Of a stretch of DNA of 64,000 bases, positions 15,889 to 38,975 are shown in pieces (positions within the stretch are counted from its first letter, which is position 1; every line of letters begins with the position of its first letter). The stretch spans positions 1,454-65,453 of the forward strand of contig JAFRGC010000006.1 of assembly GCA_017434025.1 (NCBI GenBank), read 5' to 3'. The translations under genes and the position numbers were made by a program. The DNA is from Mogibacterium sp. (GTDB lineage: Bacteria; Bacillota; Clostridia; Peptostreptococcales; Anaerovoracaceae). The notes under the pieces are model-generated. The model searched no databases and was not told the origin of the DNA. It worked only from the letters and a program-made list of their open reading frames with translations.

Positions 15889-15945
15889 ATTCATTCTCCT
15901 TATTAAAACTATCCCTGACCCTTGCTGCAGATCTGTAAGATCTGT

Positions 15946-16965: not shown

Positions 16966-17154
16966 GGAATTCTCCTCTCGTGTTTTACAAAAAGTATTCA
17001 ATATATTATACTTAATCATGCGCTATAATTCAATGAATATGCGGTTGCGGACGCCCGGAACGGACTCCATTAACAGATGCAACACCCGGGCCCTGCAGCG
17101 ACACTTATATATGAACAGATCCTACAATATCTGTTGGAAAGGAGGCGGTACGCC

Positions 17155-19083: not shown

Positions 19084-19089
19084 GTCAGT

Positions 19090-19097
19090 ATTATACA
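19090..19097 (-). promoter_or_regulatory. Extended -10 element (TGTATAAT) 6 nt upstream of the flippase ATG
   Basis: The minus-strand sequence is TGTATAAT-ACTGAC-ATG. No Shine-Dalgarno is present, which suggests a leaderless mRNA. Confidence 0.3.
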
Positions 19098-19138
19098 ACG
19101 AAAAGCGTCTCCTCTGCAGTCAATACATAGGAGACGCT
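19097..19138 (-). terminator. Terminator after the 19161-20528 gene
   Basis: A 9-bp stem AGCGTCTCC / GGAGACGCT with a 17-nt loop, followed on the minus strand by TTTTCGTT. Confidence 0.5.
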
Positions 19139-22466: not shown

Positions 22467-22645
22467 TGATCCTGTCCTTTCTTCCCTATGATACATGCAT
22501 TTTACCATTGAACAGCGGACCGCCGCAAGGAACCTCACTGTCTGTTCATGCAGCAGCCTGCTGCAGCGACCGTATATTAATAGGTAATTAAAGGTTGCGA
22601 AGGGGCGTTGAACATAATAGAATGACTATGAATGAGGTGAAAAAC

Positions 22646-23653
22646 ATGAAATATTCTATAGTAATACCTTGCTACAAGTCTGCCCATACGATCCGGCAGG
22701 TGGTCGAAGAGACGAGCGCAGAGCTGGAGAGGATCGGCCGTACTCCATACGAATTTGTGCTTGTGGACGATTTCTCGCCGGATGAAGGCAACACAGTCCG
22801 TGAGCTCCGCGCGCTTGCGGAAGAGTACGACTTTGTCACATCGATCGCTTTGGCACACAATGTCGGACAGCATAACGCTCTGATCGCCGGGCTCAATTAT
22901 GCAGAGGGCGATATCATCGTTTTCATGGATGATGACATGCAGACGCATCCGTCGCAGCTGGATAAGCTGATCAGCGCTCTGGATGAAGACCATGATGTCG
23001 TCTACGGATATTATCCGGAGAAGAAGCACTCCGGTTTCCGCAGATTCGGTTCCTGGTTCACGCATATGAGTGTCCGTGTCCTGATCGGCAAGCCTAAAGA
23101 CATGAAGACTTCGAGCTACCTCTGCATGAAGAAATATGTCAGAGACTATATCATCCAGTATCCGGCTCACTACACGCAGATGCAGGGACTGATCCTGCGC
23201 ACAGTCGCTCCGTCACGTATCGCGAGTGTTCCTATACAGCATTTTGACAGAGCATACGGTGAGTCAGGTTACACGATCAAGAAGCTGCTGAGCTTATGGT
23301 CTAACATAGCAGGATTCTCTATCGTTCCGCTCCGTTTCGCACAGAGATTCGGTGTCTTTACCACCCTGTGCGGAGTTCTTGGCCTGATATGGCTGCTGGT
23401 ACGCAAACTCATCAGCAAGACCAAGATCCTCGGCTGGACATCCACGATGATGACCATCATCATTTTCTCAGGCATTATCCTTGTGACTCTCGGTGTTGTC
23501 GGCGAATACGTCGGCCGGATGTTCCTCACCATGGGCAATTACCCGCAGTTCGTCGTGCGGGAGATCTATAAGAGCGAGCCGGAGAAGACTGGCGCCGGCC
23601 CTTCAGCCGGCCCGGCTGCAGACGCCTCGTCCGGTCCCGGATCGGAGGCCTAA
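22646..23653 (+). CDS. GT2 polyprenyl-phosphate glycosyltransferase (GtrB/CsbB/ArnC-like)
   Basis: GAGGTG Shine-Dalgarno, then MKYSIVIPCYKS. Contains VDDFSPD and a DDD acidic motif (MDDDMQTHP), and two C-terminal TM helices ending GEYVGRMF..YPQFVV. This is typical of C55-P-sugar synthases. Confidence 0.8.
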   Translation: MKYSIVIPCYKSAHTIRQVVEETSAELERIGRTPYEFVLVDDFSPDEGNTVRELRALAEEYDFVTSIALAHNVGQHNALIAGLNYAEGDIIVFMDDDMQTHPSQLDKLISALDEDHDVVYGYYPEKKHSGFRRFGSWFTHMSVRVLIGKPKDMKTSSYLCMKKYVRDYIIQYPAHYTQMQGLILRTVAPSRIASVPIQHFDRAYGESGYTIKKLLSLWSNIAGFSIVPLRFAQRFGVFTTLCGVLGLIWLLVRKLISKTKILGWTSTMMTIIIFSGIILVTLGVVGEYVGRMFLTMGNYPQFVVREIYKSEPEKTGAGPSAGPAADASSGPGSEA

Positions 23654-23762: not shown

Positions 23763-23798
23763 AAAGAGTCAGGAATCGTTATCCTCCTGACTCTTTTT
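23763..23798. terminator. Bidirectional terminator between convergent genes
   Basis: A 12-bp stem AAAGAGTCAGGA / TCCTGACTCTTT with a 10-nt loop. It is flanked by T-rich sequence when read on either strand. Confidence 0.75.
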
Positions 23799-23874: not shown

Positions 23875-24765
23875 TCAGGCTTTCATCTCTGCTACTGCTG
23901 CTTCCATATCCAGCGGCTCGTACCCCAGCTGCTCTCTGAGTACTGTGATGTCCATGCAGGATGACCGGATGGTCTCCGGCGTTGCATCGTCGTAATTGAT
24001 TGGGGTCGGATTGCTGTAGACACGGTTGACGATCTGCGCGATCTCCAGGTTGGAGTACGCGTTTGGCATGCCGGCATTGACGATGAGCCTGTCCGACGGC
24101 TCCCTTGCAGCCAGCTTCGTCAGTATCCTCACCAGATCTTTGACATAGAGATATTGCCTCTTCGCCACGCTCTTTCCGATCACTTTGATCTCGCCGCCTG
24201 CTGCTGCTGTGTCGAGGAAAACGTTCATCATTGCGCGTCTCCTCTCGCCTGCTCCGAGGACCTGTGCGATCCTGACGATACCGTACCCAAACCCGGATTC
24301 TTCCGCGTACTGCTGTATCAGCTCCTCGCACCTGATCTTGGAGTTGCCGTACATCGTGCGGCCTTTGAGCGGGGTGTCTTCGCTCCACGGGATCAGATCC
24401 ACATCGTCATACACCGAGATCGTCGACGCGAAAACGATCCGCCCGACTCCATCCGATACCATCGCTTTGAGGATATTCTCTGTGATCTGCTCATTGATCA
24501 CATAATCATCCGGGTTGCTTGTCGTCCCCCGGACTCCTGCAAGGTGGATGACCACATCCGCTCCTGCAAGCGCTGTCCTGAGGCTCTCTTCGGAAAAATC
24601 CGTGGCTCGCCACTCACAGCTCATATCTCCACACGAAGAAGAATCCGCCTGCGCGGATCCCCCTCTTGTAAGTCCTATGATACTGATCTCATCTTCATGA
24701 CTGCCGATATACTCAAGCAGCTCTGTTCCTATAAACCCGCTGGCTCCGGTCACTGCGATTCTCAT
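23875..24765 (-). CDS. NAD-dependent epimerase/dehydratase family SDR
   Basis: MRIAVTGASGFIGTEL Rossmann motif and YGNSKIRCE (YxxxK). AGGAG lies 10 nt upstream of the ATG at 24765. Substrate unknown. Confidence 0.75.
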   Translation of the reverse strand: MRIAVTGASGFIGTELLEYIGSHEDEISIIGLTRGGSAQADSSSCGDMSCEWRATDFSEESLRTALAGADVVIHLAGVRGTTSNPDDYVINEQITENILKAMVSDGVGRIVFASTISVYDDVDLIPWSEDTPLKGRTMYGNSKIRCEELIQQYAEESGFGYGIVRIAQVLGAGERRRAMMNVFLDTAAAGGEIKVIGKSVAKRQYLYVKDLVRILTKLAAREPSDRLIVNAGMPNAYSNLEIAQIVNRVYSNPTPINYDDATPETIRSSCMDITVLREQLGYEPLDMEAAVAEMKA

Positions 24766-24798
24766 CAGATCCTTACTCCTCATCTGCGGCGCATACGC

Positions 24799-26121
24799 CT
24801 ACTTCACATTGCATACAAAGCATCTCTGCTTGCCTGTCTTCTCCGGCGGCAGCTCATCCAGCCACTCGATCGTGATCCTGAACTCATCGCCGTAGAGCTT
24901 GGTGACCTCAGTGATAAATCTGTCTTCGATCTGCTCCTTGGTCATCGACTTGTTGAACGGATCGGCTACCAGCTGGATCTTCATATCGTGGTAAGTTTCC
25001 TCAATAAATCTGAACTGCGACAGTCCGACTGTGTGGTTTGCGATCCTCATGAGCTGGAGCGCTGAAGAATCTGCACCTCCCTCATGCTTGACGAGGTCGT
25101 TCATACGGCCTTCGATCGCAGTGAAATATCTGATGCCGTCCTTGACATAGGATTTGCCGAGGTCGAGAGTTTCGTAGTTGATCAGCGGATAGGTCTGCTT
25201 GTAAAGCGATGTTACGAGAATGCGCCCGTCATCCGCCAGTTCGTTCTTATCGTTATAGACATTGGCGACCGCAATGTCGTTCGCGACGACACGGTAGCCT
25301 TTGCCCGGGAATTCATAGATAAAGCTGCCCATCTCGGATACTCCGTACGCGTCGATGAGTCCTGGCCCGAGCGCTTTGGCAAGCATCTTGCGGGTAACAT
25401 CATCGACCATCTCACTGATCGGCGCGTAGAATTTCGGCTTCCAGACATCGAACTTGTGGGCCTCTGCATAAGCGACCATCCTGACCATGACGTTGCGGCG
25501 CAGGCAGATCAGGTCCGGTTTGTACTCGTTGATGTCCTTGATCAGATCCGCGATACCGTCACCGACGATGTGGTCTTCACCGACGACTTTGCGCCTCATC
25601 AGGCCAAACTTCTGTACGATCGAGTCTCTGTCTTTCTTCCTCGGGCCTTTGTGGCTCGTCGAGAAGGAATACATCTTACCTCTCAGCGGCTTGTATCCTG
25701 CCGATGCCAGTGCTCTCGCCCAGTTCGCGTCGCTGCAGGCCTGCTCCTTCTGTGTATAGAGCATCTTGAGCGGTGTGCCCGACGATCCGCTGGTGCTGAG
25801 GATGTTGATATCCTTCTGCTTATCCGGATGATCGTCCCATTCGTGCTGCATCCACAGGCGCAGCTCCGGTTTGGTGAGCGGCGGGAACTTGACCAGATCT
25901 TCACTGCAGTGATAATCGTCCGGTGTCGTGCCCGACTGTTCGAACTTCTCTCTGTAGAAAGGGATCTTGTAAGCCTTCTTCATCAGCTTGTGGATCCTTC
26001 TGTTCTGGTCCTTCTTGATCTTCTTAGGATCTCCGTCCAGATTCCTGCTGAGTGTCAGCAGATACCATACGGTGTATACATTCTTGAGTTTCTTCTGCAG
26101 ACTCATTTGCGCAACCCCCAT
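24799..26121 (-). CDS. Adenylate-forming enzyme, phenylacetate-CoA ligase / CapK / F390-synthetase-like
   Basis: Contains STSGSSGTPLKM (the SSGTTG-like AMP-binding loop), and the length and order match PaaK/CapK proteins. The start is ambiguous: ATG at 26121, two nt after the upstream stop, or ATG at 26106. Confidence 0.7.
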   Translation of the reverse strand: MGVAQMSLQKKLKNVYTVWYLLTLSRNLDGDPKKIKKDQNRRIHKLMKKAYKIPFYREKFEQSGTTPDDYHCSEDLVKFPPLTKPELRLWMQHEWDDHPDKQKDINILSTSGSSGTPLKMLYTQKEQACSDANWARALASAGYKPLRGKMYSFSTSHKGPRKKDRDSIVQKFGLMRRKVVGEDHIVGDGIADLIKDINEYKPDLICLRRNVMVRMVAYAEAHKFDVWKPKFYAPISEMVDDVTRKMLAKALGPGLIDAYGVSEMGSFIYEFPGKGYRVVANDIAVANVYNDKNELADDGRILVTSLYKQTYPLINYETLDLGKSYVKDGIRYFTAIEGRMNDLVKHEGGADSSALQLMRIANHTVGLSQFRFIEETYHDMKIQLVADPFNKSMTKEQIEDRFITEVTKLYGDEFRITIEWLDELPPEKTGKQRCFVCNVK

Positions 26122-26123
26122 TT

Positions 26124-27251
26124 CTAGACCAGATTGCCGGTCTTGCGGATCACATATCCGCACTTCTCGATAAAGCCATTGATCTTGAGCACTCTGTCTC
26201 CGTCAGCGTAGTAGTAGCAGGTATACTCTGCGCCATCTGTATCGAAATCCGCTTTCGCAAACTTTGCGTTCGATTCCTTGCTCATGAATTTCAGACTGTA
26301 TTCCACAGAGGACTGTGGATACTCATCGTCGAGCACGGATTCCCCTTCCAGCAGATGCCTGAAGCACGCATCCAGCAGATCCGCGCCACAGTAGTGTTTG
26401 ATCAGATTCCACATGTGACATCCATCAAGTCTCGGTGTCACTTCGATAATGTATGGCTCAGTGCTGTCTTTAAGTTTGATCTGGAAATACGCCGGTCCGT
26501 CGGTGATCCCCAGCTTGTCTGCGATCCTGCGGGCAAGATCGACAGTCTTTTCTTTGGTTTCTTCATCTGCGAACGACGAAGGTACGCGGTGCTCCTTGAT
26601 GATCCCTCCCGGATATTCGTCGAAAGCGTAACGGTCACTGACTACGGCAATCTTCATCTCACCGTTCTGCATGTACGCATTGACCGAGATCTCCGGTCCG
26701 TCGATGAACTCTTCGATTATGACTTTGCCATCGATCGAGTAGTCAAGGGATGCGGCAAAATTCGCTTTGATATCTTCCGCCGAATCCACACGGAAGCAGC
26801 CTCTCTGCCCCTGCGAGTCCACCGGCTTCATCATTCCAGGGAATCTGTCGTACTGCAGCGCCTCTTCAAGCGTGCTGCATACCATGAACGCTGCATTTCC
26901 CTTGAAATCGCTCCCCAATGCTTCACGCATGAGATTCTTGGAGTGGCACACCTCGGCTGTCTTCGATGATATGAAATGCGGCAGACCGAGAATCTCGCTT
27001 GCCTTCATGACGGTAGGCATTGCCAGATCGGACCCGATCGAATAGATCGCGGCTACTTCGTACTTGGTCGCCAGTGCCATGACCCCTTCGATACTCTTGA
27101 TGTCCACCTGCTCGAAGTAGTCAAGATGCGGGATCCCGCAGTCTACAGTCGTATAGCTGCAGCCTACGACTTCATATCCATGCGCTTTACAGTATTCTAT
27201 TGCATCTATCTGAGCGTTTCCCGCGCCCAGGATCAATACTCTTTTCTTCAT
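26124..27251 (-). CDS. ATP-grasp domain ligase (paralog 1)
   Basis: N-terminal pre-ATP-grasp fold MKKRVLILGAGNAQIDAIEYCK. The central K-containing segment is PGMMKPVDSQGQRG, followed by VIIEEFIDGPEISV and EVTPRLDG. Confidence 0.75.
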   Translation of the reverse strand: MKKRVLILGAGNAQIDAIEYCKAHGYEVVGCSYTTVDCGIPHLDYFEQVDIKSIEGVMALATKYEVAAIYSIGSDLAMPTVMKASEILGLPHFISSKTAEVCHSKNLMREALGSDFKGNAAFMVCSTLEEALQYDRFPGMMKPVDSQGQRGCFRVDSAEDIKANFAASLDYSIDGKVIIEEFIDGPEISVNAYMQNGEMKIAVVSDRYAFDEYPGGIIKEHRVPSSFADEETKEKTVDLARRIADKLGITDGPAYFQIKLKDSTEPYIIEVTPRLDGCHMWNLIKHYCGADLLDACFRHLLEGESVLDDEYPQSSVEYSLKFMSKESNAKFAKADFDTDGAEYTCYYYADGDRVLKINGFIEKCGYVIRKTGNLV

Positions 27252-27273
27252 TACTATCTTTCCTGTTGTTTTT

Positions 27274-28566
27274 CTATTCCCAGATCGCTCCTCTGATCAC
27301 TCCATCGTCTCCCTTGACTTTGACATTGATCAGTTCTTTGATATGCTCGATCCTCTCCATTATCTGCGGTCTGCTGTCTGCGAACAGAACGATAGCGACA
27401 CGCTGGTTCTTGTCAGTGGCGGACAGCGTGTGCTGGCCGACCTTGAAGTTGCCGAGATTTGTCTTGACGACATAGTCAAGTGCTTCGACCTCATCGGCAC
27501 CTTCCATGGAGATGATCTCTCCGAACGGCATGTAGAAGCATACATATCCGCAGCTGCACTGATTCATTTCGAATTCAGGAACATCGTGTGTTCTGCCAAG
27601 TGCAACATTGACCAGGAATTCCGCAGTGTCGATACCTGTCTGCAGTTGCGTGATGTAGGAAGCGATATAGGTACCGCCGCCTCTCAGCGCCGCTTCGATC
27701 AGATAGATCTCACCGGTCTTGGCGTCCATGATGTATTCGTTGTGCGAGAGACCCTGTATCATGCCAAAGCCTTCATTGACCTTCTGGCTGTAGTCAAGGA
27801 GTCTCTTCGTTGTTTCTTCATCGATATCTGCAGGATACAGTCTGGTCTTCGATGAGAAAACATTCGGGATCTTGAACTCATCGAGATCTGCATACATCAG
27901 CGGAACGACATGTCCGCCTGCCGCGATCGAATCGACCTCGAACTGCGGGCCTTCGATAAACTTCTCGATGATGACTCCGCCGCTGCGAGAGATCTCTTTG
28001 GCCTCGTCCCACTTAGCGATCAGTTCCGCTTCATCAGGGATCTTGGAGATGCCGCGGCTGCTGCTGGCATCGACCGGTTTGATGATCGCTGTCGTGCCAA
28101 AACTCCTGAACGCTTCGAGCGCCTCATCGAGAGTGTAGACCATCACGCTCTCGATCGTTGCGAGACCGAGTTCTTTCGTGCGCACTCTCATGCGGTGTTT
28201 GTCAGTGTATAACAGAGCAGTCTCGTAACCGTTGCCCGGGAGTCCCATCTTCTCTGCAGCGTATGCCACCGCTCTGACGAAAATCTCTCCCTGGTCGGAA
28301 ATAACACCATTGACGTTCTCCACTCTGGCTACGTCAGCAACATATTCTTCGATCTTGGCATCATGGAAATATACCTTGTCTGCTACTTTGATCCCAGGAT
28401 AGGTGCCGTGTGGCGTCACCGCGATGACGTATGCGTCCATAGCCTGTGCCATTTCGATCAGGTGCATCTGGAACGGGCCGGCTCCGAGGATGATGAGTTT
28501 ATCCTGTCCTGATGAACTGTCATACGGCCTGTTCGTTAAGGTATCATGCGTAAATTCTGCGTTCAT
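27274..28566 (-). CDS. ATP-grasp domain ligase (paralog 2)
   Basis: Contains KLIILGAGPFQMHLIEMA, AIIKPVDASSSRG, VIIEKFIEGPQFEV and LIEAALRGGG. GGAGG Shine-Dalgarno lies inside the end of the upstream gene. Confidence 0.75.
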   Translation of the reverse strand: MNAEFTHDTLTNRPYDSSSGQDKLIILGAGPFQMHLIEMAQAMDAYVIAVTPHGTYPGIKVADKVYFHDAKIEEYVADVARVENVNGVISDQGEIFVRAVAYAAEKMGLPGNGYETALLYTDKHRMRVRTKELGLATIESVMVYTLDEALEAFRSFGTTAIIKPVDASSSRGISKIPDEAELIAKWDEAKEISRSGGVIIEKFIEGPQFEVDSIAAGGHVVPLMYADLDEFKIPNVFSSKTRLYPADIDEETTKRLLDYSQKVNEGFGMIQGLSHNEYIMDAKTGEIYLIEAALRGGGTYIASYITQLQTGIDTAEFLVNVALGRTHDVPEFEMNQCSCGYVCFYMPFGEIISMEGADEVEALDYVVKTNLGNFKVGQHTLSATDKNQRVAIVLFADSRPQIMERIEHIKELINVKVKGDDGVIRGAIWE

Positions 28567-28568
28567 AG

Positions 28569-29504
28569 TTACCTCCGCTTATCTATCACATCTCTGACAA
28601 CATATTGAGGATTCTGATTGAGGCACAGGTAGATCCTTCCTACGTATTCCCCTATCACACCGAGCACTATCATTATCATGCCGCCGATAAGAATCGTAGT
28701 GGCGATCATAGATGTCCAGCCCAGCGCTATATTGTTATGAGTAAGTTTGACGATCACAAGCACGATGATCGTGATGAATGCGAGTATCGCCATCAGCATT
28801 CCGAAGATAACGGCCAGTCTCAGCGGCTTGATCGAGAAAGTAGTGAGGCCGTTGACCCATGTCGAGAGCAGCTTCCTGAGATTATATCCCGATGAGCCTG
28901 CAGCTCTGTCCTTCTGTTCTACTTTAACGTTGCCGATATTATTGGTCGTCCTGAGGAGGAGTCCTCCCATGTGCGGGTAAGCATTGTCGTACTTGATCAT
29001 CTCGTCAATGACGAAACGTTTTGCCAGGAAATATACTGATGTAGTGATCTCCTTAGGCTTGTCGAGGAAGAACCTGATCATAGCGGTGTTGGCCCAGGTC
29101 CCCAGTCGCCTGAACAGGCTCCGGTCACCTCTCTCAACGTAATCGGCACAGACGACATCGTATCCACCTTCAACCATATGATCGTAGAACTGGAAGACTG
29201 TCTCGATCGGTGTCTGGCCGTCATCATCACTGATCGCGACGAGTTCGCCGGTCGTTTGTCTCAGTCCCGCCATAATAGCGCACTGCTGTCCGCTGTTTTT
29301 GGCGATATCAACGCCTATTACATTATCGTATCTGCTGTGGATCTGCTGTATGACTTCCCAGGTGTTGTCCGGGGAGCAGTCATTCACCAGAACGATCTCA
29401 GCTTCAAAACCATCCTTGTCTGCCACGACTGACTGAATGGTATCTACCACCGCAGGAAGTGTCCTGGCAGATCTGTAGCACGGAATCACAAATGATATCA
29501 GCAT
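28569..29504 (-). CDS. GT2 polyprenyl-phosphate glycosyltransferase (GtrB/CsbB-like), second copy
   Basis: Contains MLISFVIPCYRS, VNDCSPD and SDDDGQTP, and two C-terminal TM helices with GEYVGRIY..NPQYVV. Confidence 0.8.
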   Translation of the reverse strand: MLISFVIPCYRSARTLPAVVDTIQSVVADKDGFEAEIVLVNDCSPDNTWEVIQQIHSRYDNVIGVDIAKNSGQQCAIMAGLRQTTGELVAISDDDGQTPIETVFQFYDHMVEGGYDVVCADYVERGDRSLFRRLGTWANTAMIRFFLDKPKEITTSVYFLAKRFVIDEMIKYDNAYPHMGGLLLRTTNNIGNVKVEQKDRAAGSSGYNLRKLLSTWVNGLTTFSIKPLRLAVIFGMLMAILAFITIIVLVIVKLTHNNIALGWTSMIATTILIGGMIMIVLGVIGEYVGRIYLCLNQNPQYVVRDVIDKRR

Positions 29505-29522
29505 ATTGTTTGCACCTCAGTT

Positions 29523-30650
29523 CTACTCTCTGACTTCATATATATAATAACCGCATCTTTCATAGATGTTGGTAGGATCATCTTTGAGTATGATCCTGCG
29601 GTCGACTTTATCTTTAATAATGGAATCCGGATGTTTTCTCTTGATCTTGCTGTACTGCTCCAGATCCGCTTTCTGCGTGATGAATCCGACTCCGACTTTT
29701 CTTACATCTCTCACCACCGGTGGTTCTTCGATAGCGTCTCCCATAGCGATGCTCACTACCGCCCCGACAAAATCATATCCTGTAGAAAGCTGTACGAGGT
29801 CACTTCCGATGAAGTCGCCGCCCATACGTCCGCCGATCTCGATGAGCTTGATGTTGCCCTTCGCGTCGACTTTGAGCTCTACGTGCGCAGCGCCATTCTC
29901 AAGCTTGAGAGTATCCAGTGCATGGTCTGCGACTTTCCTGATCTTCTCTTTGAGCTCGTCACTGATCGGAGCAGGCTGTATATGCCCTGTTTCAATGAAG
30001 TGCGGCGCGCCTGTGGTAAATTTCTGTGTGACTGTGAGCATGTAATGTCTGCCGTGATAAGAAATATACTCGACACTGTATTCATCACCGGTAGCAAATT
30101 CTTCTACCAGAGCCTTCTTCTCGAAGCTCTCCTGGACCGCTGCGGCAATTGCTCTTGCGAGGCCTTCCGGGGATTCCAGTTTGTTGACGCCTCTGCTGCC
30201 ACTCCTGTCTGTCGGCTTGACAATGATCGGGTATTCAAGCGGCGGCAGTTCGCTCACATCGGTATCCATATCCACAAGAATGCTCTTCGGACTCGGATCT
30301 CCGTTTGCGGCAAACGCCTCTCTCATCCAGTGCTTATTCATGCTTATTCTGGTTGCTTCAAGGCTGTTGCCGACCAGTCCCATTTTGTCAGCAATATAGT
30401 TGACAGCATCCATCGCCAGATCTGAGCCGATGCTGATGATGCCGTCGATACCGATCTCTCTGCATCTCGCCAGGATCTTATCCTTCTCTCTTGTACTGAT
30501 CGGATAGAAGTAATCCGCAAGGGACTCACCGATATCTCCCGTCTTCCAGGCAAATACATGTGTCTCTATCCCCATCTCACTTGCTTTGAGGATCAGCGCC
30601 TCCTGGAAAAGAGACGCACCAATGATCGCGATCTTTCTTTTTGCTTCCAT
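29523..30650 (-). CDS. ATP-grasp domain ligase (paralog 3)
   Basis: GGAGG Shine-Dalgarno, then MEAKRKIAIIGASLFQ. Contains IIVKPTDRSGSRG, ALVEEFATGDEYSVE and LIEIGGRMGGD. Confidence 0.75.
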   Translation of the reverse strand: MEAKRKIAIIGASLFQEALILKASEMGIETHVFAWKTGDIGESLADYFYPISTREKDKILARCREIGIDGIISIGSDLAMDAVNYIADKMGLVGNSLEATRISMNKHWMREAFAANGDPSPKSILVDMDTDVSELPPLEYPIIVKPTDRSGSRGVNKLESPEGLARAIAAAVQESFEKKALVEEFATGDEYSVEYISYHGRHYMLTVTQKFTTGAPHFIETGHIQPAPISDELKEKIRKVADHALDTLKLENGAAHVELKVDAKGNIKLIEIGGRMGGDFIGSDLVQLSTGYDFVGAVVSIAMGDAIEEPPVVRDVRKVGVGFITQKADLEQYSKIKRKHPDSIIKDKVDRRIILKDDPTNIYERCGYYIYEVRE

Positions 30651-30667
30651 TTCGCTACCTCCGGGAG

Positions 30668-31918
30668 TCATTCTGTTACTATGATTCTCTTGAGAACTCT
30701 GGCGGATGCGTTGCCATCGTCCTTAGGGTTGTATTTCGCGCAGAATTCTTCGTACTTCTGATCCGGCTGCCATGTGTCACACGCCCTGACCTCAGCAATC
30801 AGCGCGTCCTCATCTCTGACGATCGGTCCCGGCAGTTCGTCAAGCGAGAAGTAGAATCCTCTCAGCTCGTTGGCGTACTGCTCGAGGTCGTACATGTAGA
30901 AGATGACCGGTTTGCGCAGGTTGGCGTAGTCGAAGAACACGCTCGAATAATCCGTCACGAGGATGTCCGCCGCGATGTACAGCTCGTTGATGTCGCTGTA
31001 CGACGAGACATCTTCGACGAAACCTGCGTATTTGTCAAAGTCGAAGCTGTTGGCTACCAGATAGTGCGCTCTGAAGAGTATCACGTACTCGTCGCCGAGC
31101 GCCTCTCTCAGTTTGTCAAAATCGACTTCCGTCTTGTATGTGTATCCCTCCCCGCTTGTGTGCTGGTTGTCACGCCAGGTCGGAGCGTAGAGGATGACTT
31201 TCTTGTTCTCGACGCCCAGCTGCTTCCTCAGCTCAGTCCGTTCTTCCGGCGTCGTGTTGATCAGCCTGTCGTTCCTCGGATAGCCTTCCTCAATGATCTT
31301 GTGCGTCTGGTGTGTCTTCACCAGGTTCCATGCAGAGGCGAACTTCTCAGTCGTGAACGGCGAAGGCGATATTATATAGGAGAACTTCTTCGCATCGGAC
31401 TTATACTTGCTGCGGATCTCCTGGCCCGAATTCATGACGTTGTCGCTGGATTCCAGGTCGTAGCCGAGCCTCTTGAGCGGTGTGCCGTGCCAGCACTGAA
31501 CGTAGATCTGGCCCTTGCGCGGATACTGATGATTGAGCATCCTGTAGTTGGTGATCCAGTATTTTGCCGTCCTCAGCGCGACGTTATCTGCCTTGGTACG
31601 GAACTTGACGAGAGTCGTGCGGTCGTTCTCGAGGAAACGGAATTTCTCAGGCTCCTTGAAGCTCCACACGAACCGGAAATCCTTATACTCCGGCGCCTTC
31701 ATCATGTATTCGTACATCGCCTTAGGCGAATCACTGTAGCCCCTGCCCGAGAATGTCTGGAAATATACCAGCTTGTCATCGATCTTGCCGAAAGGATCAT
31801 CGGCCGTCATCTTGGCGCGGTACAGGATATCCCTGGCGCCTCTCGAGACTACACGGAATGCCTTGTTCTTCTTGGAGATGTCGAATATTATTTTCTTTGC
31901 TTTCTTCGTAAAACTCAT
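30668..31918 (-). CDS. CDP-glycerol glycerophosphotransferase family protein (TagB/TagF-like)
   Basis: Glyphos_transf signatures QCWHGTPLKRLG, LYAPTWRD and LVTDYSSVFFDYANLRKPVIFYMYDLEQY. An ATGA start/stop overlap links it to the upstream gene. Confidence 0.85.
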   Translation of the reverse strand: MSFTKKAKKIIFDISKKNKAFRVVSRGARDILYRAKMTADDPFGKIDDKLVYFQTFSGRGYSDSPKAMYEYMMKAPEYKDFRFVWSFKEPEKFRFLENDRTTLVKFRTKADNVALRTAKYWITNYRMLNHQYPRKGQIYVQCWHGTPLKRLGYDLESSDNVMNSGQEIRSKYKSDAKKFSYIISPSPFTTEKFASAWNLVKTHQTHKIIEEGYPRNDRLINTTPEERTELRKQLGVENKKVILYAPTWRDNQHTSGEGYTYKTEVDFDKLREALGDEYVILFRAHYLVANSFDFDKYAGFVEDVSSYSDINELYIAADILVTDYSSVFFDYANLRKPVIFYMYDLEQYANELRGFYFSLDELPGPIVRDEDALIAEVRACDTWQPDQKYEEFCAKYNPKDDGNASARVLKRIIVTE

Positions 31919-33030
31919 ATCAGTCTCTCAATGAAATCTGCCAGCGCTGCTGTGCAGTTCTCTGTATCGATGTCAATGTATCTGTCTCTGAATGCCCTGA
32001 GGGCTTCCTTATCGTAAGGCTGCTCCAGCGCAGCCGCGAGTTTCGCCGGGTCCGTAAACACGTAAGGCGCGATCGGCTCACTGCTGAAGTCCATATTCAG
32101 ACCTGTGGTCTGCATGTAGGAGTCGATATCGTATGTGTAGAGATAAAGCGGTTTGTCCGCCAGAGTCGCTTCGACGACCAGCGAAGAGTAATCGCTGATC
32201 ACGATATCCGCGACGGACAGCCAGTCATACGAGCGGAACTCCGCATCGTAGATGATATTCTCCCCTCTGACCTCTTCATTGCTTGCCCGGTCGATCGGGT
32301 GCAGCTTGACCACAAGATCGTATCTGTCAGGATCGATAGCCGCCGCAAGCCCTGCGACATCGACCGGTTTGCCCTTGTGGAACGTCGGAGCGTACAGTAT
32401 GACTTTCTTGTCTCCTGCGAGCTGCGGATATCTCTCGCGGATCCTTGCCGCAGTCTCTTCCCTCTCACTGCCCAGAGCGACCCGCTTGATATAGTCTATG
32501 CGAGGGAGCCCCAGCTTGACGATCTTGTCGCGGCTCACCCTGAATGCTTCGCTGAAGTGTTCGGCTGTGATGTCACTGCAGCATACCACATGATCGTATC
32601 CGTTGTGCATCTTCATCAGACGGGCAGTCCTCTCAGACGAACCATCTGCCAGACCGACTGTCTGCCAGCCAAACTTCTTGACTGCACTCAGCGCGTGCCA
32701 CATCTGCACGGTCGTGAGACCCTTGCGGTGCGGCAACATGCTGACAGGTATGATATACGTATCCATCACTACCACGTCGGAGTCGATCATACTGGCGGCC
32801 TGCTTCATCATATGGCCGATGTAGCCGAGCGCCTTCAGAGACTTCTCCTTGGTCAGCAGCCTGGTAAGCGTCCTGATCTCGATGCCCCTGCCTTGCAGCT
32901 CCTGCTCGAGCAAGCGAATATCCAGAGTCTTGGAATTGCTCTCTCTGCTGATTATCGTAACTCTTTTCTTTCCTCGTCTGCTCACTGTCAGTCTGTACTC
33001 CGCTCTCAAGTGGTCATGCTTCTTCAACAT
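31915..33030 (-). CDS. CDP-glycerol glycerophosphotransferase family protein (TagB-like, short form)
   Basis: Contains QMWHALSAVKKFG, LYAPTFHKG and VISDYSSLVVEATLADKPLYLYTYDIDSY. Confidence 0.8.
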   Translation of the reverse strand: MLKKHDHLRAEYRLTVSRRGKKRVTIISRESNSKTLDIRLLEQELQGRGIEIRTLTRLLTKEKSLKALGYIGHMMKQAASMIDSDVVVMDTYIIPVSMLPHRKGLTTVQMWHALSAVKKFGWQTVGLADGSSERTARLMKMHNGYDHVVCCSDITAEHFSEAFRVSRDKIVKLGLPRIDYIKRVALGSEREETAARIRERYPQLAGDKKVILYAPTFHKGKPVDVAGLAAAIDPDRYDLVVKLHPIDRASNEEVRGENIIYDAEFRSYDWLSVADIVISDYSSLVVEATLADKPLYLYTYDIDSYMQTTGLNMDFSSEPIAPYVFTDPAKLAAALEQPYDKEALRAFRDRYIDIDTENCTAALADFIERLI

Positions 33031-33094: not shown

Positions 33095-33122
33095 TGAAAA
33101 ACGAGGGGCTGTACGCCCCTCG
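33095..33122 (-). terminator. Rho-independent terminator after the SH3b protein gene
   Basis: An 8-bp GC stem CGAGGGGC / GCCCCTCG with a 5-nt loop, followed on the minus strand by TTTTT. Confidence 0.75.
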
Positions 33123-35206: not shown

Positions 35207-35935
35207 TCAGTTCTTGGCCTCATAGAACTCTATTGCCTCTTCGATCGGCCCATCGAAAAGTTTGGTGCCTTTCTCCAGAACGATCCCTCTGCTGCAGAAA
35301 TCCTGGGCTGTTGTCAGAGAATGTGTGACGAACAGCAGCGTGACATCTTCGTCTGCCATGATCTCAGCGACCTTATCCTTGCACTTCTTCTGGAAGGCTT
35401 TATCACCTACACTCAGTGCCTCGTCAACGATCAGGATGTCCGGCTGAGCATTTACGTTTATTGCAAAACCAAGTCTGGCTTTCATACCGCTGGAATACGA
35501 TCTGAGCGGCTGATCGATATAATCACCGATATCCGCAAATTTAATGATATCACCCTCGACAGCCTTGATCTCCTCCTCATTCATGCTCATGAGGCTGCAC
35601 TTGAAGGAGATGTTTTCTCTGCCGGTGGACTCTATATCAAATCCCGCGCTGAGTTCCAGCAGCGCGCTGACTTTGCCGTTGACGTATACTTCGCCCTCTG
35701 TCGGGAAAGTAACGCCCGTAACCATCTTGAGGATCGTTGACTTGCCAGCGCCGTTACGCCCGAACAGCGCAACACTCTCGCCTCTCCTCACTTCAAAGGA
35801 GAGGTTCTTGACGGCACGGTTCTCTTTGTAAGGAACTTTCTTGCTGAACAGTCCCTTGAACCTCGCGCGGCTGCTCTTGTACAGCTTGTAGAGCTTGGTT
35901 ACGTTATCGAATCTTACTACTACTTCGTTTTCCAT
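35207..35935 (-). CDS. tagH: Teichoic-acid/polysaccharide export ABC transporter ATP-binding protein (TagH/Wzt/KpsT type, short form)
   Basis: Walker A GRNGAGKSTILK, signature YSSGMKARLGF and Walker B ILIVDEALSVGD. The N-terminal YKLYKSSRARFKGLF segment is typical of TagH/KpsT. Confidence 0.85.
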   Translation of the reverse strand: MENEVVVRFDNVTKLYKLYKSSRARFKGLFSKKVPYKENRAVKNLSFEVRRGESVALFGRNGAGKSTILKMVTGVTFPTEGEVYVNGKVSALLELSAGFDIESTGRENISFKCSLMSMNEEEIKAVEGDIIKFADIGDYIDQPLRSYSSGMKARLGFAINVNAQPDILIVDEALSVGDKAFQKKCKDKVAEIMADEDVTLLFVTHSLTTAQDFCSRGIVLEKGTKLFDGPIEEAIEFYEAKN

Positions 35936-35956
35936 ATATCTAATCTCAACAAATCA

Positions 35957-38952: not shown

Positions 38953-38975
38953 GTGTTTTTGCTTCCCTATTACAG

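What the first reader, a model, noticed from the sequence alone, without database searches (positions are those of the whole stretch)
24799..30650. Three divergent ATP-grasp ligases + CapK-type adenylating enzyme + C55-P-sugar synthase inside a TagB/TagF operon: candidate new amino-acid/peptide/acyl decoration system for a teichoic-acid-like polymer
Seen: one minus-strand unit is bounded by the terminator at 33095-33122 upstream and the bidirectional terminator at 23763-23798 downstream. It encodes, in order, TagB-like, TagB/F-like, ATP-grasp 3, GtrB-like GT2, ATP-grasp 2, ATP-grasp 1, a PaaK/CapK-like enzyme (SSGTP loop) and an SDR. Gaps are very short or overlapping (ATGA at 31915-31918; 2-22 nt elsewhere). 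The three ATP-grasp proteins are highly diverged from each other, so they are not a recent duplication. No acyl or peptidyl carrier protein, no DltABCD and no Mur-ligase-like gene is present. Known: ATP-grasp enzymes form amide or ester bonds through acyl-phosphates (D-Ala-D-Ala ligase, L-amino-acid ligases, and, as I recall, a glucuronate amidoligase in Campylobacter capsule synthesis). CapK/PaaK enzymes activate carboxylates as acyl-adenylates. Inference: the module could build a short peptide or amino-acyl/acyl substituent stepwise (up to four ATP-dependent ligations) on a glycerol-phosphate polymer or on the C55-P-linked sugar. That would be functionally analogous to D-alanylation but mechanistically unrelated. 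I know of no characterised system with this gene combination.
Basis: partly seen in the sequence, partly recalled or inferred. Interest (0 to 1): 0.8.

Follow-up and report, generated by a model that had tools for sequence, protein, structure and literature searches.

The report
Amino-acid ligases decorating wall-polymer sugars
A teichoic-acid operon of an uncultured gut/rumen Clostridia-class bacterium carries three amino-acid-ligase-like enzymes and a CapK-like adenylating enzyme that most likely attach amino-acid or acyl groups to lipid-carried sugars used to decorate the cell-wall polymer, a combination for which I found no experimental study.

Summary
Eight tightly packed minus-strand genes lie between two real terminators: TagB-like, TagF-like, ATP-grasp AG3, GtrB/ArnC-like GT2a, ATP-grasp AG2, ATP-grasp AG1, a PaaK/CapK-like enzyme and an SDR. 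The three ATP-grasps are about 27% identical to each other. They resemble L-amino-acid ligases most closely, not purine, biotin or carbamoyl-phosphate enzymes.

The block looks like two decoration modules, not one four-step line on glycerol phosphate.

- **Module A (AG3-GT2a-AG2).** AG3 belongs to a family matched in at least 497 stretches of a one-genome-per-species collection, mostly Clostridia. Of 58 well-flanked loci, 56 carry a GtrB-like GT2 and/or a WecE-type dTDP-Fuc4N aminotransferase nearby. Many also carry ArnE/F-like small membrane proteins and GT-C enzymes, which gives Arn-pathway logic. TagB/F is nearby in only 10%. The window itself encodes RmlB and WecE.
- **Module B (AG1-CapK-SDR).** This module recurs with a Wzx flippase, a GT2b-type synthase and YfhO or Mem602. 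AG1-SDR fusion proteins exist.

Best model, inferred rather than shown: ATP-dependent N-acylation or aminoacylation of sugars on the cytoplasmic side, flipping, then GT-C transfer onto the TagGH-exported polymer. The closest precedents are VpsH (a CapK-like glycine ligase), ArnC/ArnT logic and predicted TupA-like ATP-grasps. I rate it a new variant of a known kind.

The parts
33095..33122 (-). Intrinsic terminator ending the upstream ELLD-SH3 gene; marks the start of the TagB operon
   Evidence: Sequence GCGAGGGGCGUACAGCCCCUCG followed by UUUUU. Fold energy -28.5 kcal/mol, z=-4.6.
31915..33030 (-). TagB-like CDP-glycerol glycerophosphotransferase (371 aa)
   Evidence: PF04464 E=2.4e-45. TarB model 3e-34, below the equivalog cut-off.
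30668..31918 (-). TagF/TarF-like glycerophosphotransferase (416 aa)
   Evidence: PF04464 E=1.2e-107. TarF model 2.5e-97, below cut-off. 73-78% identical orthologues lie next to AG3 in L007, L008, L011, L012 and L014.
29523..30671 (-). AG3: Lal-like ATP-grasp ligase (382 aa). Predicted N-acyl/aminoacyl ligase for the amino sugar of module A.
   Evidence: Family and PDB sequence matches. AF2 model pLDDT 88.7; best Foldseek hit 3vot, TM 0.82. Orthologue context: GT2 79%, WecE 57%.
28569..29504 (-). GT2a: GtrB/ArnC/PgfS-type polyprenyl-phosphate sugar synthase (311 aa; two C-terminal TM helices)
   Evidence: PF00535 9e-26. PgfS 2e-41 and ArnC 6e-39 over the full length. TM helices. Directly adjacent to AG3 orthologues in 31 of 58 loci.
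27274..28566 (-). AG2: Lal-like ATP-grasp ligase (430 aa) with a weak LAL_C2 tail; second ligase of module A
   Evidence: BacD 1.3e-21. LAL_C2 2.4e-4, below cut-off. Follows GT2a in L006, L007, L011, L012 and L013.
26124..27251 (-). AG1: Lal-like ATP-grasp ligase (375 aa); ligase of module B
   Evidence: 3vot 6.9e-15. Followed by the CapK-like gene in L007, L009-L011, L052 and L091. Fusions of AG1-like and SDR domains exist.
24799..26121 (-). PaaK/CapK-like adenylate-forming enzyme (440 aa). Predicted amide (or ester) ligase acting on a lipid-linked or nucleotide sugar.
   Evidence: PaaK model 3.9e-17. PaaK structures 7e-10. CapK_C is listed as a weak precomputed hit. STSGSSGTPLK and C-terminal GK motifs are visible in the translation. 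Contexts.
23875..24783 (-). SDR, NDP-sugar epimerase/dehydratase-like (302 aa); partner of AG1
   Evidence: PF01370 4e-37. 3m2p 4.8e-37. 50% identical orthologue after the CapK-like gene in L091. The fused SDR domains match it best among the 24 window proteins compared.
23763..23796 (.). Hairpin terminator shared by the convergent operon end and GT2b
   Evidence: 13-bp stem found by the terminator scan.
22646..23653 (+). GT2b: second GtrB-like polyprenyl-phosphate sugar synthase (335 aa from the ATG used by public gene calls)
   Evidence: PF00535 2.5e-24. Two C-terminal TM helices. 53-77% identical orthologues accompany the CapK-like gene in L009, L011, L012, L014, L052, L090 and L091.
20730..22466 (-). 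Mem602: multi-pass membrane protein with no Pfam family; candidate divergent GT-C transferase paired with GT2b
   Evidence: No Pfam hit. AF2 model pLDDT 90.7. The only high-probability Foldseek hits are GT-C enzymes (ALG12, ArnT, STT3, EmbB, Pmt4), but they are weak: E about 3e-3, TM 0.33-0.43. Invariant YETND motif (D46 nearly invariant) after TM1. Next to a GT2b-type gene in L006, L009 and L011.
17803..19098 (-). Wzx/MOP-type flippase candidate
   Evidence: PF01943 2.7e-11. A Wzx gene lies directly beside the CapK-like gene in L012-L014, L090 and L091.
15946..17019 (-). RmlB, dTDP-glucose 4,6-dehydratase
   Evidence: PDB 6bi4 E=3e-122.
14758..15894 (-). WecE-type dTDP-4-amino-4,6-dideoxygalactose (Fuc4N) transaminase; supplies the amino sugar proposed as AG3's acceptor
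   Evidence: PDB 4piw E=2.8e-160. Orthologues 59-88% identical lie within 6 kb of AG3 orthologues in 33 of 58 loci.
10442..13189 (-). YfhO-family GT-C transferase (915 aa)
   Evidence: PF09586 E=2.2e-76.
35207..36763 (-). TagH/TagG-type ABC exporter for the polymer
   Evidence: ABC_tran 2.7e-21 and ABC2_membrane 6.2e-16. Conserved upstream of the block in L007, L009, L011 and L014.

Best explanation
The operon joins backbone synthesis (TagB/TagF-like glycerophosphotransferases) to two cytoplasmic tailoring modules for lipid-carried decoration sugars.

**Module A (AG3-GT2a-AG2).** The window's RmlB and WecE make dTDP-4-amino-4,6-dideoxygalactose (Fuc4N). AG3 is a Lal-type ATP-grasp. It activates a small carboxylate, most likely an amino acid, as an acyl phosphate and N-acylates the 4-amino group. 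This is the step done by WecD in ECA synthesis and by the ArnA formyltransferase in the Arn pathway. GT2a transfers the sugar to undecaprenyl phosphate. AG2 adds a second residue.

**Module B (AG1-CapK-like-SDR, with GT2b).** An SDR-modified sugar is placed on undecaprenyl phosphate by GT2b. AG1 tailors it through an acyl phosphate and the CapK-like enzyme through an acyl adenylate, in the way VpsH adds glycine to a lipid-linked sugar.

**Export and attachment.** The lipid-linked products are flipped by the Wzx-like protein. GT-C enzymes (YfhO, Mem602) transfer them outside the membrane onto the TagGH-exported, LCP-attached polymer.

**Shown versus inferred.** Shown: gene identities, operon structure, family affiliations, conserved gene associations and the fusion proteins. 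Inferred: every substrate, the order of steps and the final acceptor.
For: - **Family.** All three ATP-grasps match Lal enzymes best by sequence. For AG3 this also holds by structure. The catalytic core of AG3 aligns with BL00235.
- **Amino-sugar supply.** The window encodes RmlB (3e-122) and WecE (2.8e-160), and no WecD-like acetyltransferase was seen in the ORFs scanned.
- **Census of 58 AG3-orthologue loci.** 56 have WecE and/or a GtrB-like GT2 within 6 kb: 23 both, 23 GT2 only, 10 WecE only. GT2 is directly adjacent in 31. Small EamA pairs occur in 45%. PMT_2, YfhO or DUF2142 GT-C genes occur in 19%.
- **Arn-like gene orders.** L086 and L088 show DegT-GT2-SDR-AG3-EamA-EamA and DUF2142-EamA-EamA-DegT-GT2-AG3.
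- **AG3 at the nucleotide-sugar level.** The ten WecE-only loci include Wzx-type clusters without GtrB, for example C. ljungdahlii L035. This favours action on the nucleotide sugar.
- **Module B.** Wzx-AG1-CapK-SDR occurs as a unit in L091. CapK-Wzx lies opposite YfhO-GT2b-type-ATP-grasp in L090. AG1-like and SDR domains are fused in P0345, P0357, P0434 and P0455.
- **Precedent.** CapK-like VpsH is genetically required for glycine addition to a bactoprenyl-PP-linked disaccharide (PMC13463779).
- **Third component.** YfhO is present at 2e-76, and Mem602 has a GT-C-like fold.
- **Link to poly(GroP).** TagB/F lies upstream, and TagD and GDPD sit inside the block in relatives.
Against: - No substrate was tested; the chemistry rests on gene context and family resemblance.
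- In the window, WecE and RmlB lie 7-10 kb beyond the operon's 3' end (about 13.6 kb from AG3) and across other genes.
- 25 of 58 AG3 loci show no WecE within 6 kb, so the acceptor may differ in some lineages.
- PurT (formate-dependent) and PurK are close structural neighbours of AG3 (TM about 0.75). The activated acid could therefore be formate or another non-amino acid.
- Module B has no evident amine or carboxylate donor on the sugar. No second aminotransferase and no UDP-glucose dehydrogenase was found in the window.
- Mem602's GT-C assignment is weak: Foldseek E about 3e-3, and hhalign against PMT_2 and DUF2142 was negative.
- TagD is absent from the 64-kb window.
- Whether tailoring occurs before or after transfer to the lipid is unknown.
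Confidence: 0.5

Rival explanations
1. Direct backbone aminoacylation. The ATP-grasps and the CapK-like enzyme esterify or amidate the poly(glycerol phosphate) chain itself in the cytoplasm before TagGH export, as a carrier-free analogue of D-alanylation.
For: - The genes are co-operonic and translationally coupled with TagB/TagF.
- TagD sits between AG2 and AG1 in L007 and L011, and next to AG2 in L019.
- ATP-grasp enzymes can form esters (D-Ala-D-Lac ligases appear among the weak family hits).
Against: - TagB/F is near AG3 orthologues in only 10% of 58 loci, against GT2 in 79% and WecE in 57%.
- AG1-CapK-SDR occurs without any TagB/F in L090 and L091.
- AG1-SDR fusions point to sugar chemistry.
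- Each ligase set travels with its own C55-P-sugar synthase.
Confidence: 0.1
2. Same pathway logic, but AG3 is a PurT-like ligase. It installs a formyl or other non-amino-acid acyl group (acetyl, glyceroyl, hydroxybutyryl) on the amino sugar, so no peptide is built.
For: - PurT and PurK are strong structural neighbours of the AG3 model (TM 0.72-0.76).
- The weak family hits include a formate-dependent GAR transformylase model (3.6e-9).
- The Arn pathway uses N-formylation at the equivalent step (established knowledge).
Against: - Sequence and structure are closer to Lal enzymes (3vot 2e-21 and TM 0.82).
- No ArnD-like deformylase or deacylase turned up among the recurrent gene clusters near AG3 orthologues, though I did not search for one specifically.
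- Extra Lal-like ligases (AG2) directly follow GT2a, which suggests extension of a free amine.
Confidence: 0.15
3. Uronic-acid amidation. One or more of the ligases, especially the CapK-like enzyme and AG1 with the SDR, activate the carboxylate of a uronic acid residue and amidate it with an amino acid or amine. VpsH does this (glycine on GulNAcA), as do the Campylobacter glucuronamide ligase and WemR/TupA-like enzymes.
For: - VpsH is CapK/PaaK-like and acts on a lipid-linked uronic acid (PMC13463779).
- The window SDR has moderate similarity to UDP-GlcA 4-epimerase (MoeE5, 6e-18) and decarboxylases (about 2e-14).
- Module B loci lack an aminotransferase.
Against: - No UDP-glucose or UDP-ManNAc dehydrogenase family was found in any scanned ORF of the window.
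- The SDR's best match is a GalE/UDP-GlcNAc 4-epimerase-type protein (3m2p, 4.8e-37).
- The ATP-grasps do not match the TupA-like or sugar-transfer ATP-grasp Pfam families.
Confidence: 0.15
4. The ligases make a soluble small molecule (a dipeptide or acyl-amino acid, dapdiamide-like) that has nothing to do with the glycopolymer, and the co-location is incidental.
For: - The dapdiamide pathway also combines a PaaK-like amide ligase (DdaG) with a Lal-type ATP-grasp (DdaF).
- Weak hits to both models were seen: AG3 against DdaF at 1.5e-8, and the PaaK-like enzyme against DdaG at 0.007.
Against: - The genes are translationally coupled inside a glycopolymer operon.
- They are consistently linked with GtrB-like synthases, flippases and GT-C enzymes across dozens of genomes.
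- AG1-SDR fusions exist.
- No exporter or resistance gene typical of antibiotic clusters was seen.
Confidence: 0.05

Closest known systems
Arn (L-Ara4N) lipid A modification pathway (ArnB, ArnA, ArnC, ArnD, ArnE/F, ArnT)
   Same: The logic matches that of the AG3 family's usual neighbourhood. A sugar aminotransferase makes an amino sugar, its amine is acylated, and a GT2 places it on undecaprenyl phosphate. Two small EamA-like proteins flip it and a GT-C transferase attaches it outside. GT2a matches the ArnC model over its full length (6e-39).
   Different: The aminotransferase is WecE-type (dTDP-Fuc4N), not ArnB. An ATP-grasp ligase stands where the folate-dependent formyltransferase would be, and no deformylase was seen. 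The acceptor is a Gram-positive wall polymer, not lipid A. The window itself has a Wzx-like flippase and YfhO/Mem602 rather than ArnE/F and a PMT_2 enzyme.
Three-component teichoic-acid/protein glycosylation systems (CsbB/GtrB/PgfS + GtcA-type flippase + YfhO or other GT-C)
   Same: Two GtrB-like synthases (GT2a matches PgfS at 2e-41), a YfhO protein (2e-76) and a flippase candidate lie beside teichoic-acid genes. The principle is described in PMC5836110 and PMC7389260, which were listed.
   Different: Known systems transfer plain hexoses or HexNAc. None of the papers found joins them to ATP-grasp or CapK-like ligases.
VpsH of Vibrio cholerae (CapK/PaaK-like enzyme adding glycine to GulNAcA of the lipid-linked VPS repeat unit; PMC13463779)
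   Same: It is a PaaK/CapK-like adenylate-forming protein in a surface-glycan locus that acts on a polyprenyl-linked sugar before flipping. It adds an amino acid without a carrier protein.
   Different: Direct homology of the window protein to VpsH was not tested because no VpsH sequence was available. VPS is a Wzx/Wzy heteropolysaccharide with a uronic acid, and no uronic-acid genes were found here. The VpsH chemistry is itself not yet shown in vitro.
L-amino-acid ligases (BL00235, BacD/YwfE, RizA) and dapdiamide DdaF/DdaG
   Same: These are the best sequence matches for all three ATP-grasps and the best structural match for AG3. They use acyl-phosphate chemistry to form amide bonds without carriers. 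Dapdiamide synthesis pairs a Lal-type enzyme with a PaaK-like amide ligase.
   Different: Those enzymes join free amino acids into soluble dipeptide antibiotics. Here the context indicates a sugar-borne acceptor. Identities are only 15-22%, and all NCBIfam scores lie far below the equivalog cut-offs.
TupA-like (PF14305) and sugar-transfer-associated (PF14397) ATP-grasps, WemR, and the Campylobacter capsule glucuronamide ligase
   Same: They share the general idea of ATP-grasp amidoligases that decorate surface polysaccharides with amino acids or amines. This is predicted for TupA/WemR (PMC13419641). The Campylobacter enzyme is recalled from memory and was not checked here.
   Different: AG1-3 do not match PF14305 or PF14397 at E<=0.01. 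Those enzymes are thought to activate a uronic-acid carboxylate on the glycan.
DltABCD D-alanylation of teichoic acids
   Same: The possible outcome is the same: amino-acid-bearing, less anionic teichoic acid.
   Different: The window has no DltC-type carrier, no MBOAT and no DltD. The adenylating enzyme is PaaK-type, not DltA-type.

Membership tests
ATP-grasp superfamily, L-amino-acid-ligase (Lal) branch | ATP-grasp fold with a flexible Gly/Ser-rich loop after a conserved Lys, acidic Mg-binding residues and an E-x-x-x-R-x-G-G motif | tested here: met
   Pfam ATP-grasp_4: 1e-24, 3e-12 and 3e-13. Motifs are visible in all three: VKPtDrSGSRG / EIGGRMGG (AG3), IKPVDASSSRG / EAALRGGG (AG2), MKPVDSQGQRG / EVTPRLDG (AG1). 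AG3 aligns with BL00235 through these motifs. AF2 and Foldseek give TM 0.82 to 3vot.
ATP-grasp superfamily, L-amino-acid-ligase (Lal) branch | Closer to Lal enzymes than to the PurK/PurT, biotin carboxylase, CPS or Ddl clades | tested here: met
   The top PDB sequence hits for all three are 3vot, BacD and 4dim. For AG3, Foldseek ranks 1-6 are Lal-type entries, with PurK/PurT next. All NCBIfam scores are far below the equivalog cut-offs.
ATP-grasp superfamily, L-amino-acid-ligase (Lal) branch | Ligation of two free L-amino acids; LAL_C2 C-terminal domain | tested here: inconclusive
   LAL_C2 is seen only in AG2, at 2.4e-4 (21.7 bits against a cut-off of 29.4), and not in AG3 or AG1. Substrates cannot be tested here, and gene context argues for a sugar-borne acceptor.
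TupA-like / sugar-transfer-associated ATP-grasps (PF14305, PF14397) | Match to the family profile | tested here: not met
   Neither family is listed for AG1-3 at E<=0.01.
GtrB/ArnC/DPM1-type polyprenyl-phosphate sugar synthases | N-terminal GT2 (GT-A) domain with an acidic DxD-type motif plus two C-terminal TM helices; full-length similarity to characterised members | tested here: met
   GT2a: PF00535 9e-26; PgfS 2e-41 and ArnC 6e-39 over residues 1-309; SDDDG motif; TM helices at about 233-251 and 271-289. GT2b: PF00535 2.5e-24 and two C-terminal TM helices. Scores are below the equivalog cut-offs, so the sugar specificity is unknown.
Arn pathway | ArnA formyltransferase/decarboxylase, ArnD deformylase, ArnB-type aminotransferase, ArnE/F and ArnT | tested here: not met
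   Window: the aminotransferase is WecE-type (4piw 2.8e-160 against ArnB 7e-46). No EamA pair was found (tblastn). No formyltransferase or deformylase family appeared in the Pfam scans. Only the logic is shared. EamA pairs and PMT_2/DUF2142 occur in other AG3 loci.
Three-component glycosylation (GtrB-like + flippase + GT-C) | All three components encoded together | tested here: met
   GT2a and GT2b. A Wzx-like MOP protein, PF01943 2.7e-11. YfhO 2.2e-76. Mem602 has a GT-C-like fold, weakly supported. GtcA was not searched for.
PaaK/CapK adenylate-forming enzymes (ANL superfamily) | Ser/Thr/Gly-rich phosphate-binding loop, C-terminal catalytic Lys and similarity to PaaK | tested here: met
   PaaK model 3.9e-17 over residues 48-358. 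PaaK structures 7e-10. STSGSSGTPLK and EKTGKQR are visible in the translation. CapK_C appears as a weak precomputed hit, but no Pfam-A family passed in my own scan.
PaaK/CapK adenylate-forming enzymes (ANL superfamily) | Amino-acid ligation to a lipid-linked sugar (VpsH-type activity) | not testable with these tools
   There is only a precedent from PMC13463779. No VpsH sequence was available for comparison.
TagB/TagF glycerophosphotransferases | Glyphos_transf domain; use of CDP-glycerol | tested here: inconclusive
   The domain is met (2e-45 and 1e-107). TagD is absent from the window but embedded in the block in L007, L011 and L019. Donor specificity was not tested, and scores are below the TarB/TarF equivalog cut-offs.
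Dlt D-alanylation system | DltA, DltC carrier, DltB MBOAT and DltD | tested here: not met
   No MBOAT hit in the window. There is no space for a carrier gene in the operon. The adenylating enzyme is PaaK-type. The rest of the genome is unseen.

The most novel reading that the evidence does not exclude
Many gut and rumen Clostridia possess an Arn-like pathway in which a Lal-type ATP-grasp aminoacylates dTDP-Fuc4N. The product is then carried on undecaprenyl phosphate and attached to wall polymers by GT-C enzymes. This would be a dlt-independent way of placing amino-acid (potentially cationic) groups on the Gram-positive surface. In the Anaerovoracaceae/Mogibacterium-like variant seen here, extra ATP-grasps and a CapK-like enzyme would build a short carrier-free, non-ribosomal peptide or acyl-peptide on lipid-linked sugars that decorate a teichoic acid.
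Probability: 0.3. Interest if true: 0.8.

Novelty: new variant of a known kind. Interest (0 to 1): 0.6.

Why it matters
Wall teichoic acids and related polymers control surface charge, resistance to cationic peptides, autolysin and phage binding, and host recognition. The established amino-acid modification of teichoic acids is Dlt-dependent D-alanylation.

If the model is right, it defines a second, mechanistically different route: ATP-grasp and CapK-like ligases working on nucleotide- or lipid-linked sugars. That route would operate in abundant but poorly studied gut and rumen Clostridia.

It would also assign a function to a large unannotated ATP-grasp family. The family gave at least 497 confirmed matches in a one-genome-per-species collection and thousands of protein clusters, some mislabelled 'biotin carboxylase'. 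The model also suggests a role for CapK-like enzymes outside Vibrio.

Cultured carriers of the core cassette make the hypothesis directly testable. They include Clostridium ljungdahlii, Agathobacter ruminis, Pseudobutyrivibrio xylanivorans, Butyrivibrio sp. and Gemmiger formicilis.

Tried and rejected
- **Primary-metabolism clades rejected.** I tested purine, biotin and CPS clade membership for the ATP-grasps. The Lal branch fits better.
- **TupA-like or ATPgrasp_ST membership rejected.** There were no profile hits.
- **Mem602 by sequence profiles failed.** Pfam gave nothing. hhalign against PMT_2-type and DUF2142 proteins was negative. Only the fold search gave weak GT-C hits.
- **Missing genes in the window.** TagD, ArnE/F-like EamA pairs and MBOAT were searched for by tblastn and not found.
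- **SDRs not narrowed down.** PDB searches for the cassette SDR and the window SDR gave only generic epimerase-like hits. L-threonine-dehydrogenase-like hits also appeared for the cassette SDR.
- **Literature.** Searches joining ATP-grasp to teichoic acid with undecaprenyl, ArnC/ArnT, GtrB/YfhO or WecE/Fuc4N/Qui4N/viosamine found nothing relevant. The Iyer et al. 2009 amidoligase paper was not held. One search was rejected for syntax.
- **Artefact in my ORF picking.** My first greedy selection produced antisense shadow ORFs (clusters c31 and c46) that hid the RmlB and WecE genes. A later tblastn run with those proteins as queries picked up their orthologues.
- **Pseudaminic-acid alternative considered unlikely.** I considered that the three ligases modify the neighbouring pseudaminic-acid pathway. 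That cluster has its own (fourth) ATP-grasp, and the three are co-transcribed with TagB/F and GT2a instead.

Full report
**1. Observation.**
- TagB-like, 31915-33030
- TagF-like, 30668-31918
- ATP-grasp AG3, 29523-30671
- GT2a, 28569-29504
- ATP-grasp AG2, 27274-28566
- ATP-grasp AG1, 26124-27251
- PaaK/CapK-like, 24799-26121 (ATG start used by public gene calls)
- SDR, 23875-24783

Junctions are 4-nt overlaps or gaps of 2-22 nt. The upstream terminator is a canonical GC-rich hairpin plus U-run at about 33122-33095 (z=-4.6). The downstream 13-bp hairpin lies at 23763-23796.

Pfam and NCBIfam confirm every domain call. The three ATP-grasps are 27-28% identical to each other. The same contig occurs in several metagenome assemblies.

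**2. What the ligases resemble.**
- By sequence against the PDB, all three ATP-grasps match L-amino-acid ligases best. These are BL00235/3vot, BacD and the mis-named 4dim. Ddl, CPS, PurT and PurK matches are weaker.
- An AlphaFold model of AG3 (pLDDT 88.7) has its best Foldseek matches to 3vot (TM 0.82), 4dim and BacD. PurK and PurT follow at TM about 0.75.
- The ATP-grasp signature motifs are intact in all three. They do not match the TupA-like or sugar-transfer ATP-grasp families.
- The CapK-like protein matches PaaK models and structures. It keeps the phosphate-binding loop and the C-terminal Lys.

**3. Surroundings.** The window is a large wall-glycopolymer locus.

Beyond the operon's 3' end, at lower coordinates:
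- A second GtrB-like synthase, GT2b, on the plus strand.
- Mem602, a 578-602-aa membrane protein with no Pfam family.
- A YkuD-domain protein and a Wzx-like flippase.
- RmlB (6bi4, 3e-122) and a WecE-type dTDP-Fuc4N transaminase (4piw, 2.8e-160).
- A YfhO GT-C enzyme (2e-76) and a 1034-aa TagF-like protein.
- A TagO-like GT4, an LCP ligase and an acyltransferase.

Upstream of the operon, at higher coordinates:
- An ELLD-SH3 wall protein.
- The TagG/TagH exporter.
- A GT52 polysialyltransferase-like protein and a 1009-aa GT2.
- A complete pseudaminic/legionaminic-acid cluster, headed by a fourth ATP-grasp, a class-III aminotransferase and an Fe-ADH.

TagD is absent from the window.

**4. Census.** AG3 has thousands of homologues. 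A scan of one genome per species returned at least 497 confirmed matches, of which I kept 80 loci. Nearly all are Clostridia, and the closest are Anaerovoracaceae and Mogibacterium MAGs.

For the 58 loci with adequate flanks, genes found within 6 kb of the AG3 orthologue:

| Gene near the AG3 orthologue | Share of loci |
|---|---|
| GtrB-like GT2 | 79% |
| WecE orthologue (59-88% identical to the window's) | 57% |
| Pair of small EamA proteins | 45% |
| SDR | 38% |
| RmlB / RmlA | 22% / 21% |
| GT-C-like protein | 19% |
| CapK-like | 14% |
| TagB/F | 10% |
| AG1 | 10% |
| AG2 | 9% |

- 56 of 58 loci have WecE and/or GT2: 23 have both, 23 GT2 only and 10 WecE only. GT2 is directly adjacent in 31.
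- Pfam confirmed the cluster identities: DegT, EamA, PMT_2, YfhO, DUF2142 and a TagD-like cytidylyltransferase.
- Typical gene orders are DegT-GT2-SDR-AG3-EamA-EamA and DUF2142-EamA-EamA-DegT-GT2-AG3, often beside wall hydrolases. This is the logic of the Arn pathway, with an ATP-grasp in the place of the formyltransferase.
- In ten loci WecE and AG3 occur without any GtrB-like gene. Some of these are Wzx-type clusters, for example C. ljungdahlii L035. This argues that AG3 works at the nucleotide-sugar level.

**5. Modules.** The full TagB/F-linked block occurs only in the closest relatives (L007, L009-L012, L014), and its content varies.
- **AG2** directly follows GT2a wherever it occurs, except in L019, where a Wzx and TagD intervene (L006, L007, L011-L013).
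- **AG1** is always followed by the CapK-like gene (L007, L009-L011, L052, L091).
- **The CapK-like gene** travels with a Wzx flippase (L012-L014, L090, L091). It also travels with a GT2b-type synthase that is 53-77% identical to GT2b, and with Mem602 or YfhO.
- **L091** carries Wzx-AG1-CapK-SDR as a stand-alone unit.
- **L090** carries CapK-Wzx opposite YfhO-GT2b-type-ATP-grasp.
- **The AG1 family** is small: 198 representatives at E<=1e-30. It includes proteins in which an AG1-like domain is fused to an SDR domain. Among the window proteins compared, that domain matches the operon's SDR best. Tandem ATP-grasp fusions also exist.

I therefore read the block as backbone genes plus two tailoring modules. 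Module A is AG3-GT2a-AG2, fed by RmlB and WecE. Module B is AG1-CapK-SDR, working with GT2b, Mem602 or YfhO, and Wzx.

**6. Mem602.**
- Sequence profiles fail to place it.
- A confident model (pLDDT 90.7) has only GT-C glycosyltransferases among its high-probability Foldseek hits: ALG12, ArnT, STT3, EmbB and Pmt4. The E-values are weak (about 3e-3) and the TM-scores low (0.33-0.43).
- An invariant YETND motif (the following Asp is nearly invariant) follows the first TM helix.
- It lies next to a GT2b-type gene in L006, L009 and L011 as well.
- I regard it as a probable but unproven divergent GT-C enzyme.

**7. Mechanism (inferred).**
- RmlB and WecE make dTDP-Fuc4N.
- AG3 activates a small carboxylate as an acyl phosphate and N-acylates the 4-amine. 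Given the Lal affinity, the carboxylate is most likely an amino acid.
- GT2a moves the sugar to undecaprenyl phosphate, and AG2 adds a second residue to the new free amine.
- In module B an SDR-modified sugar on undecaprenyl phosphate (via GT2b) is tailored by AG1 and the CapK-like enzyme.
- The lipid-linked products are flipped. GT-C enzymes then transfer them onto the TagB/TagF-built, TagGH-exported polymer.
- TagD and a GDPD enzyme sit inside the block in relatives, which supports a glycerol-phosphate backbone.
- Not shown: any substrate, the order of acylation relative to lipid transfer, the acceptor polymer, and the chemistry of module B.
- I put 0.5 on this overall model. Within it, I am more confident that the ligases act on sugars of a lipid-linked decoration pathway than on any of the details.

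**8. Rivals.**
- **Direct aminoacylation of the glycerol-phosphate chain (0.1).** It is disfavoured by the weak family-wide link to TagB/F and the strong link to GtrB-like synthases, flippases and sugar enzymes.
- **PurT-like formyl or other acyl transfer by AG3 (0.15).** It keeps the pathway but removes the peptide, and is not excluded.
- **Uronic-acid amidation, as by VpsH (0.15).** It fits the CapK precedent but lacks uronic-acid genes in the window.
- **A soluble dipeptide product (0.05).** It conflicts with the conserved context.

**9. Known systems.**
- The searchable literature holds no paper that joins ATP-grasp enzymes to GtrB/YfhO systems, ArnC/ArnT in Firmicutes, or WecE/Fuc4N.
- Precedents for parts exist. 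CapK-like VpsH is genetically required for glycine addition to a bactoprenyl-PP-linked VPS disaccharide (PMC13463779). TupA-like ATP-grasps are predicted to add amino acids to surface polysaccharides (PMC13419641). An 'ATP-grasp amino acyl ligase' is annotated in a clostridial nonulosonic-acid locus (PMC4000134).
- The finding is thus a new variant of known kinds (three-component or Arn-like decoration combined with carrier-free ligases), not a categorically new system.

**10. Limits.**
- Only one 64-kb window and 20-kb neighbourhoods were seen. Genome-wide presence of dlt, TagD, WecD or distant WecE genes could not be assessed.
- The census used the best 80 of at least 497 hits and simple tblastn assignment.
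- All functional statements beyond family membership and gene association are inference.

Noticed in passing
window 47054-50637 (-), continuing to 42010: A fourth Lal-like ATP-grasp (49423-50637; weak LAL_C2) heads a sub-operon. It is followed by a class-III aminotransferase (48218-49477), an Fe-alcohol dehydrogenase (47054-48205) and a complete PseC/PseB/CMP-synthetase/PseG-like/NeuB set. This suggests a nonulosonic acid carrying an unusual amino-acyl or hydroxy-acyl N-substituent.
   Followed up: partly
window 36790-42005 (-): A GT52/polysialyltransferase-like protein (720 aa) and a 1009-aa GT2 lie between the NulO genes and TagGH, in a stretch of clearly lower GC (0.39-0.41 against about 0.50). 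This may be a horizontally exchanged, serotype-like segment that polymerises the nonulosonic acid.
   Followed up: no
window 20730-22538 (-): The Mem602 family comprises about 100 protein clusters, mostly Mogibacterium/Anaerovoracaceae and all 'hypothetical', two of them with DUF6056. It has no Pfam assignment but a confident model whose only meaningful fold hits are GT-C enzymes. An invariant YETND loop motif follows TM1. It lies next to a GtrB-like gene (GT2b type) in the window and in L006, L009 and L011.
   Followed up: yes
L006:7123-9902, L013:3748-5196, L016:12412-15191: In some close relatives an MBOAT-family O-acyltransferase lies inside the ligase block; in L006 and L016 it comes with a 382-387-aa partner that has no Pfam family. 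The window has no such gene. It could O-acylate the polymer or, more speculatively, pass an activated acyl group across the membrane as DltB does.
   Followed up: partly
L011:13332-13739, also L007 and L019: A TagD-like glycerol-3-phosphate cytidylyltransferase sits between AG2 and AG1 in L007 and L011, and next to AG2 in L019. It is missing from the whole 64-kb window. A GDPD phosphodiesterase follows the SDR in L009 and L010.
   Followed up: partly
proteins P0345, P0357, P0434, P0455; P0473, P0486: Natural fusions exist of an AG1-like ATP-grasp with an NDP-sugar SDR domain. Two Lal-like ATP-grasps in tandem also occur. Both are useful Rosetta-stone evidence, and good targets for biochemistry.
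   Followed up: partly
L047:6104-7096 (cassette SDR): The SDR found between GT2 and AG3 in many cassettes matches SDR-type L-threonine 3-dehydrogenases about as well as it matches GalE-type epimerases (E about 1e-15). Its role is unclear, and it may act on the acyl part rather than on the sugar.
   Followed up: no
window 33148-35010 (-): The endolysin-like (ELLD) plus SH3 wall protein contains a long Ala/Lys/Glu-rich repeat region (AAKKAAEEKAAAEAAAKKAA...). Public gene calls for otherwise near-identical contigs give different product lengths (609 and 541 aa against the 620-aa ORF here), which suggests repeat-number variation.
   Followed up: no
window 13202-14749, 19161-20528, 50794-53067, 55079-57926: Many secreted wall enzymes are interspersed with the glycan genes. 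They carry fn3/Big_2, YkuD, NlpC/P60 and CHAP domains and choline-binding-type repeats. In other AG3 loci, amidase and glucosaminidase genes flank the cassette. The decorated polymer may be their anchoring ligand.
   Followed up: no
window 4122-5906 (-) and 17077-17715 (+): Two ORFs have no family assignment. One is a 594-aa protein between the TagO-like gene and a PGI/SIS-like gene. The other is a 212-aa single-TM protein on the opposite strand, and it is conserved in L006 and L014.
   Followed up: no
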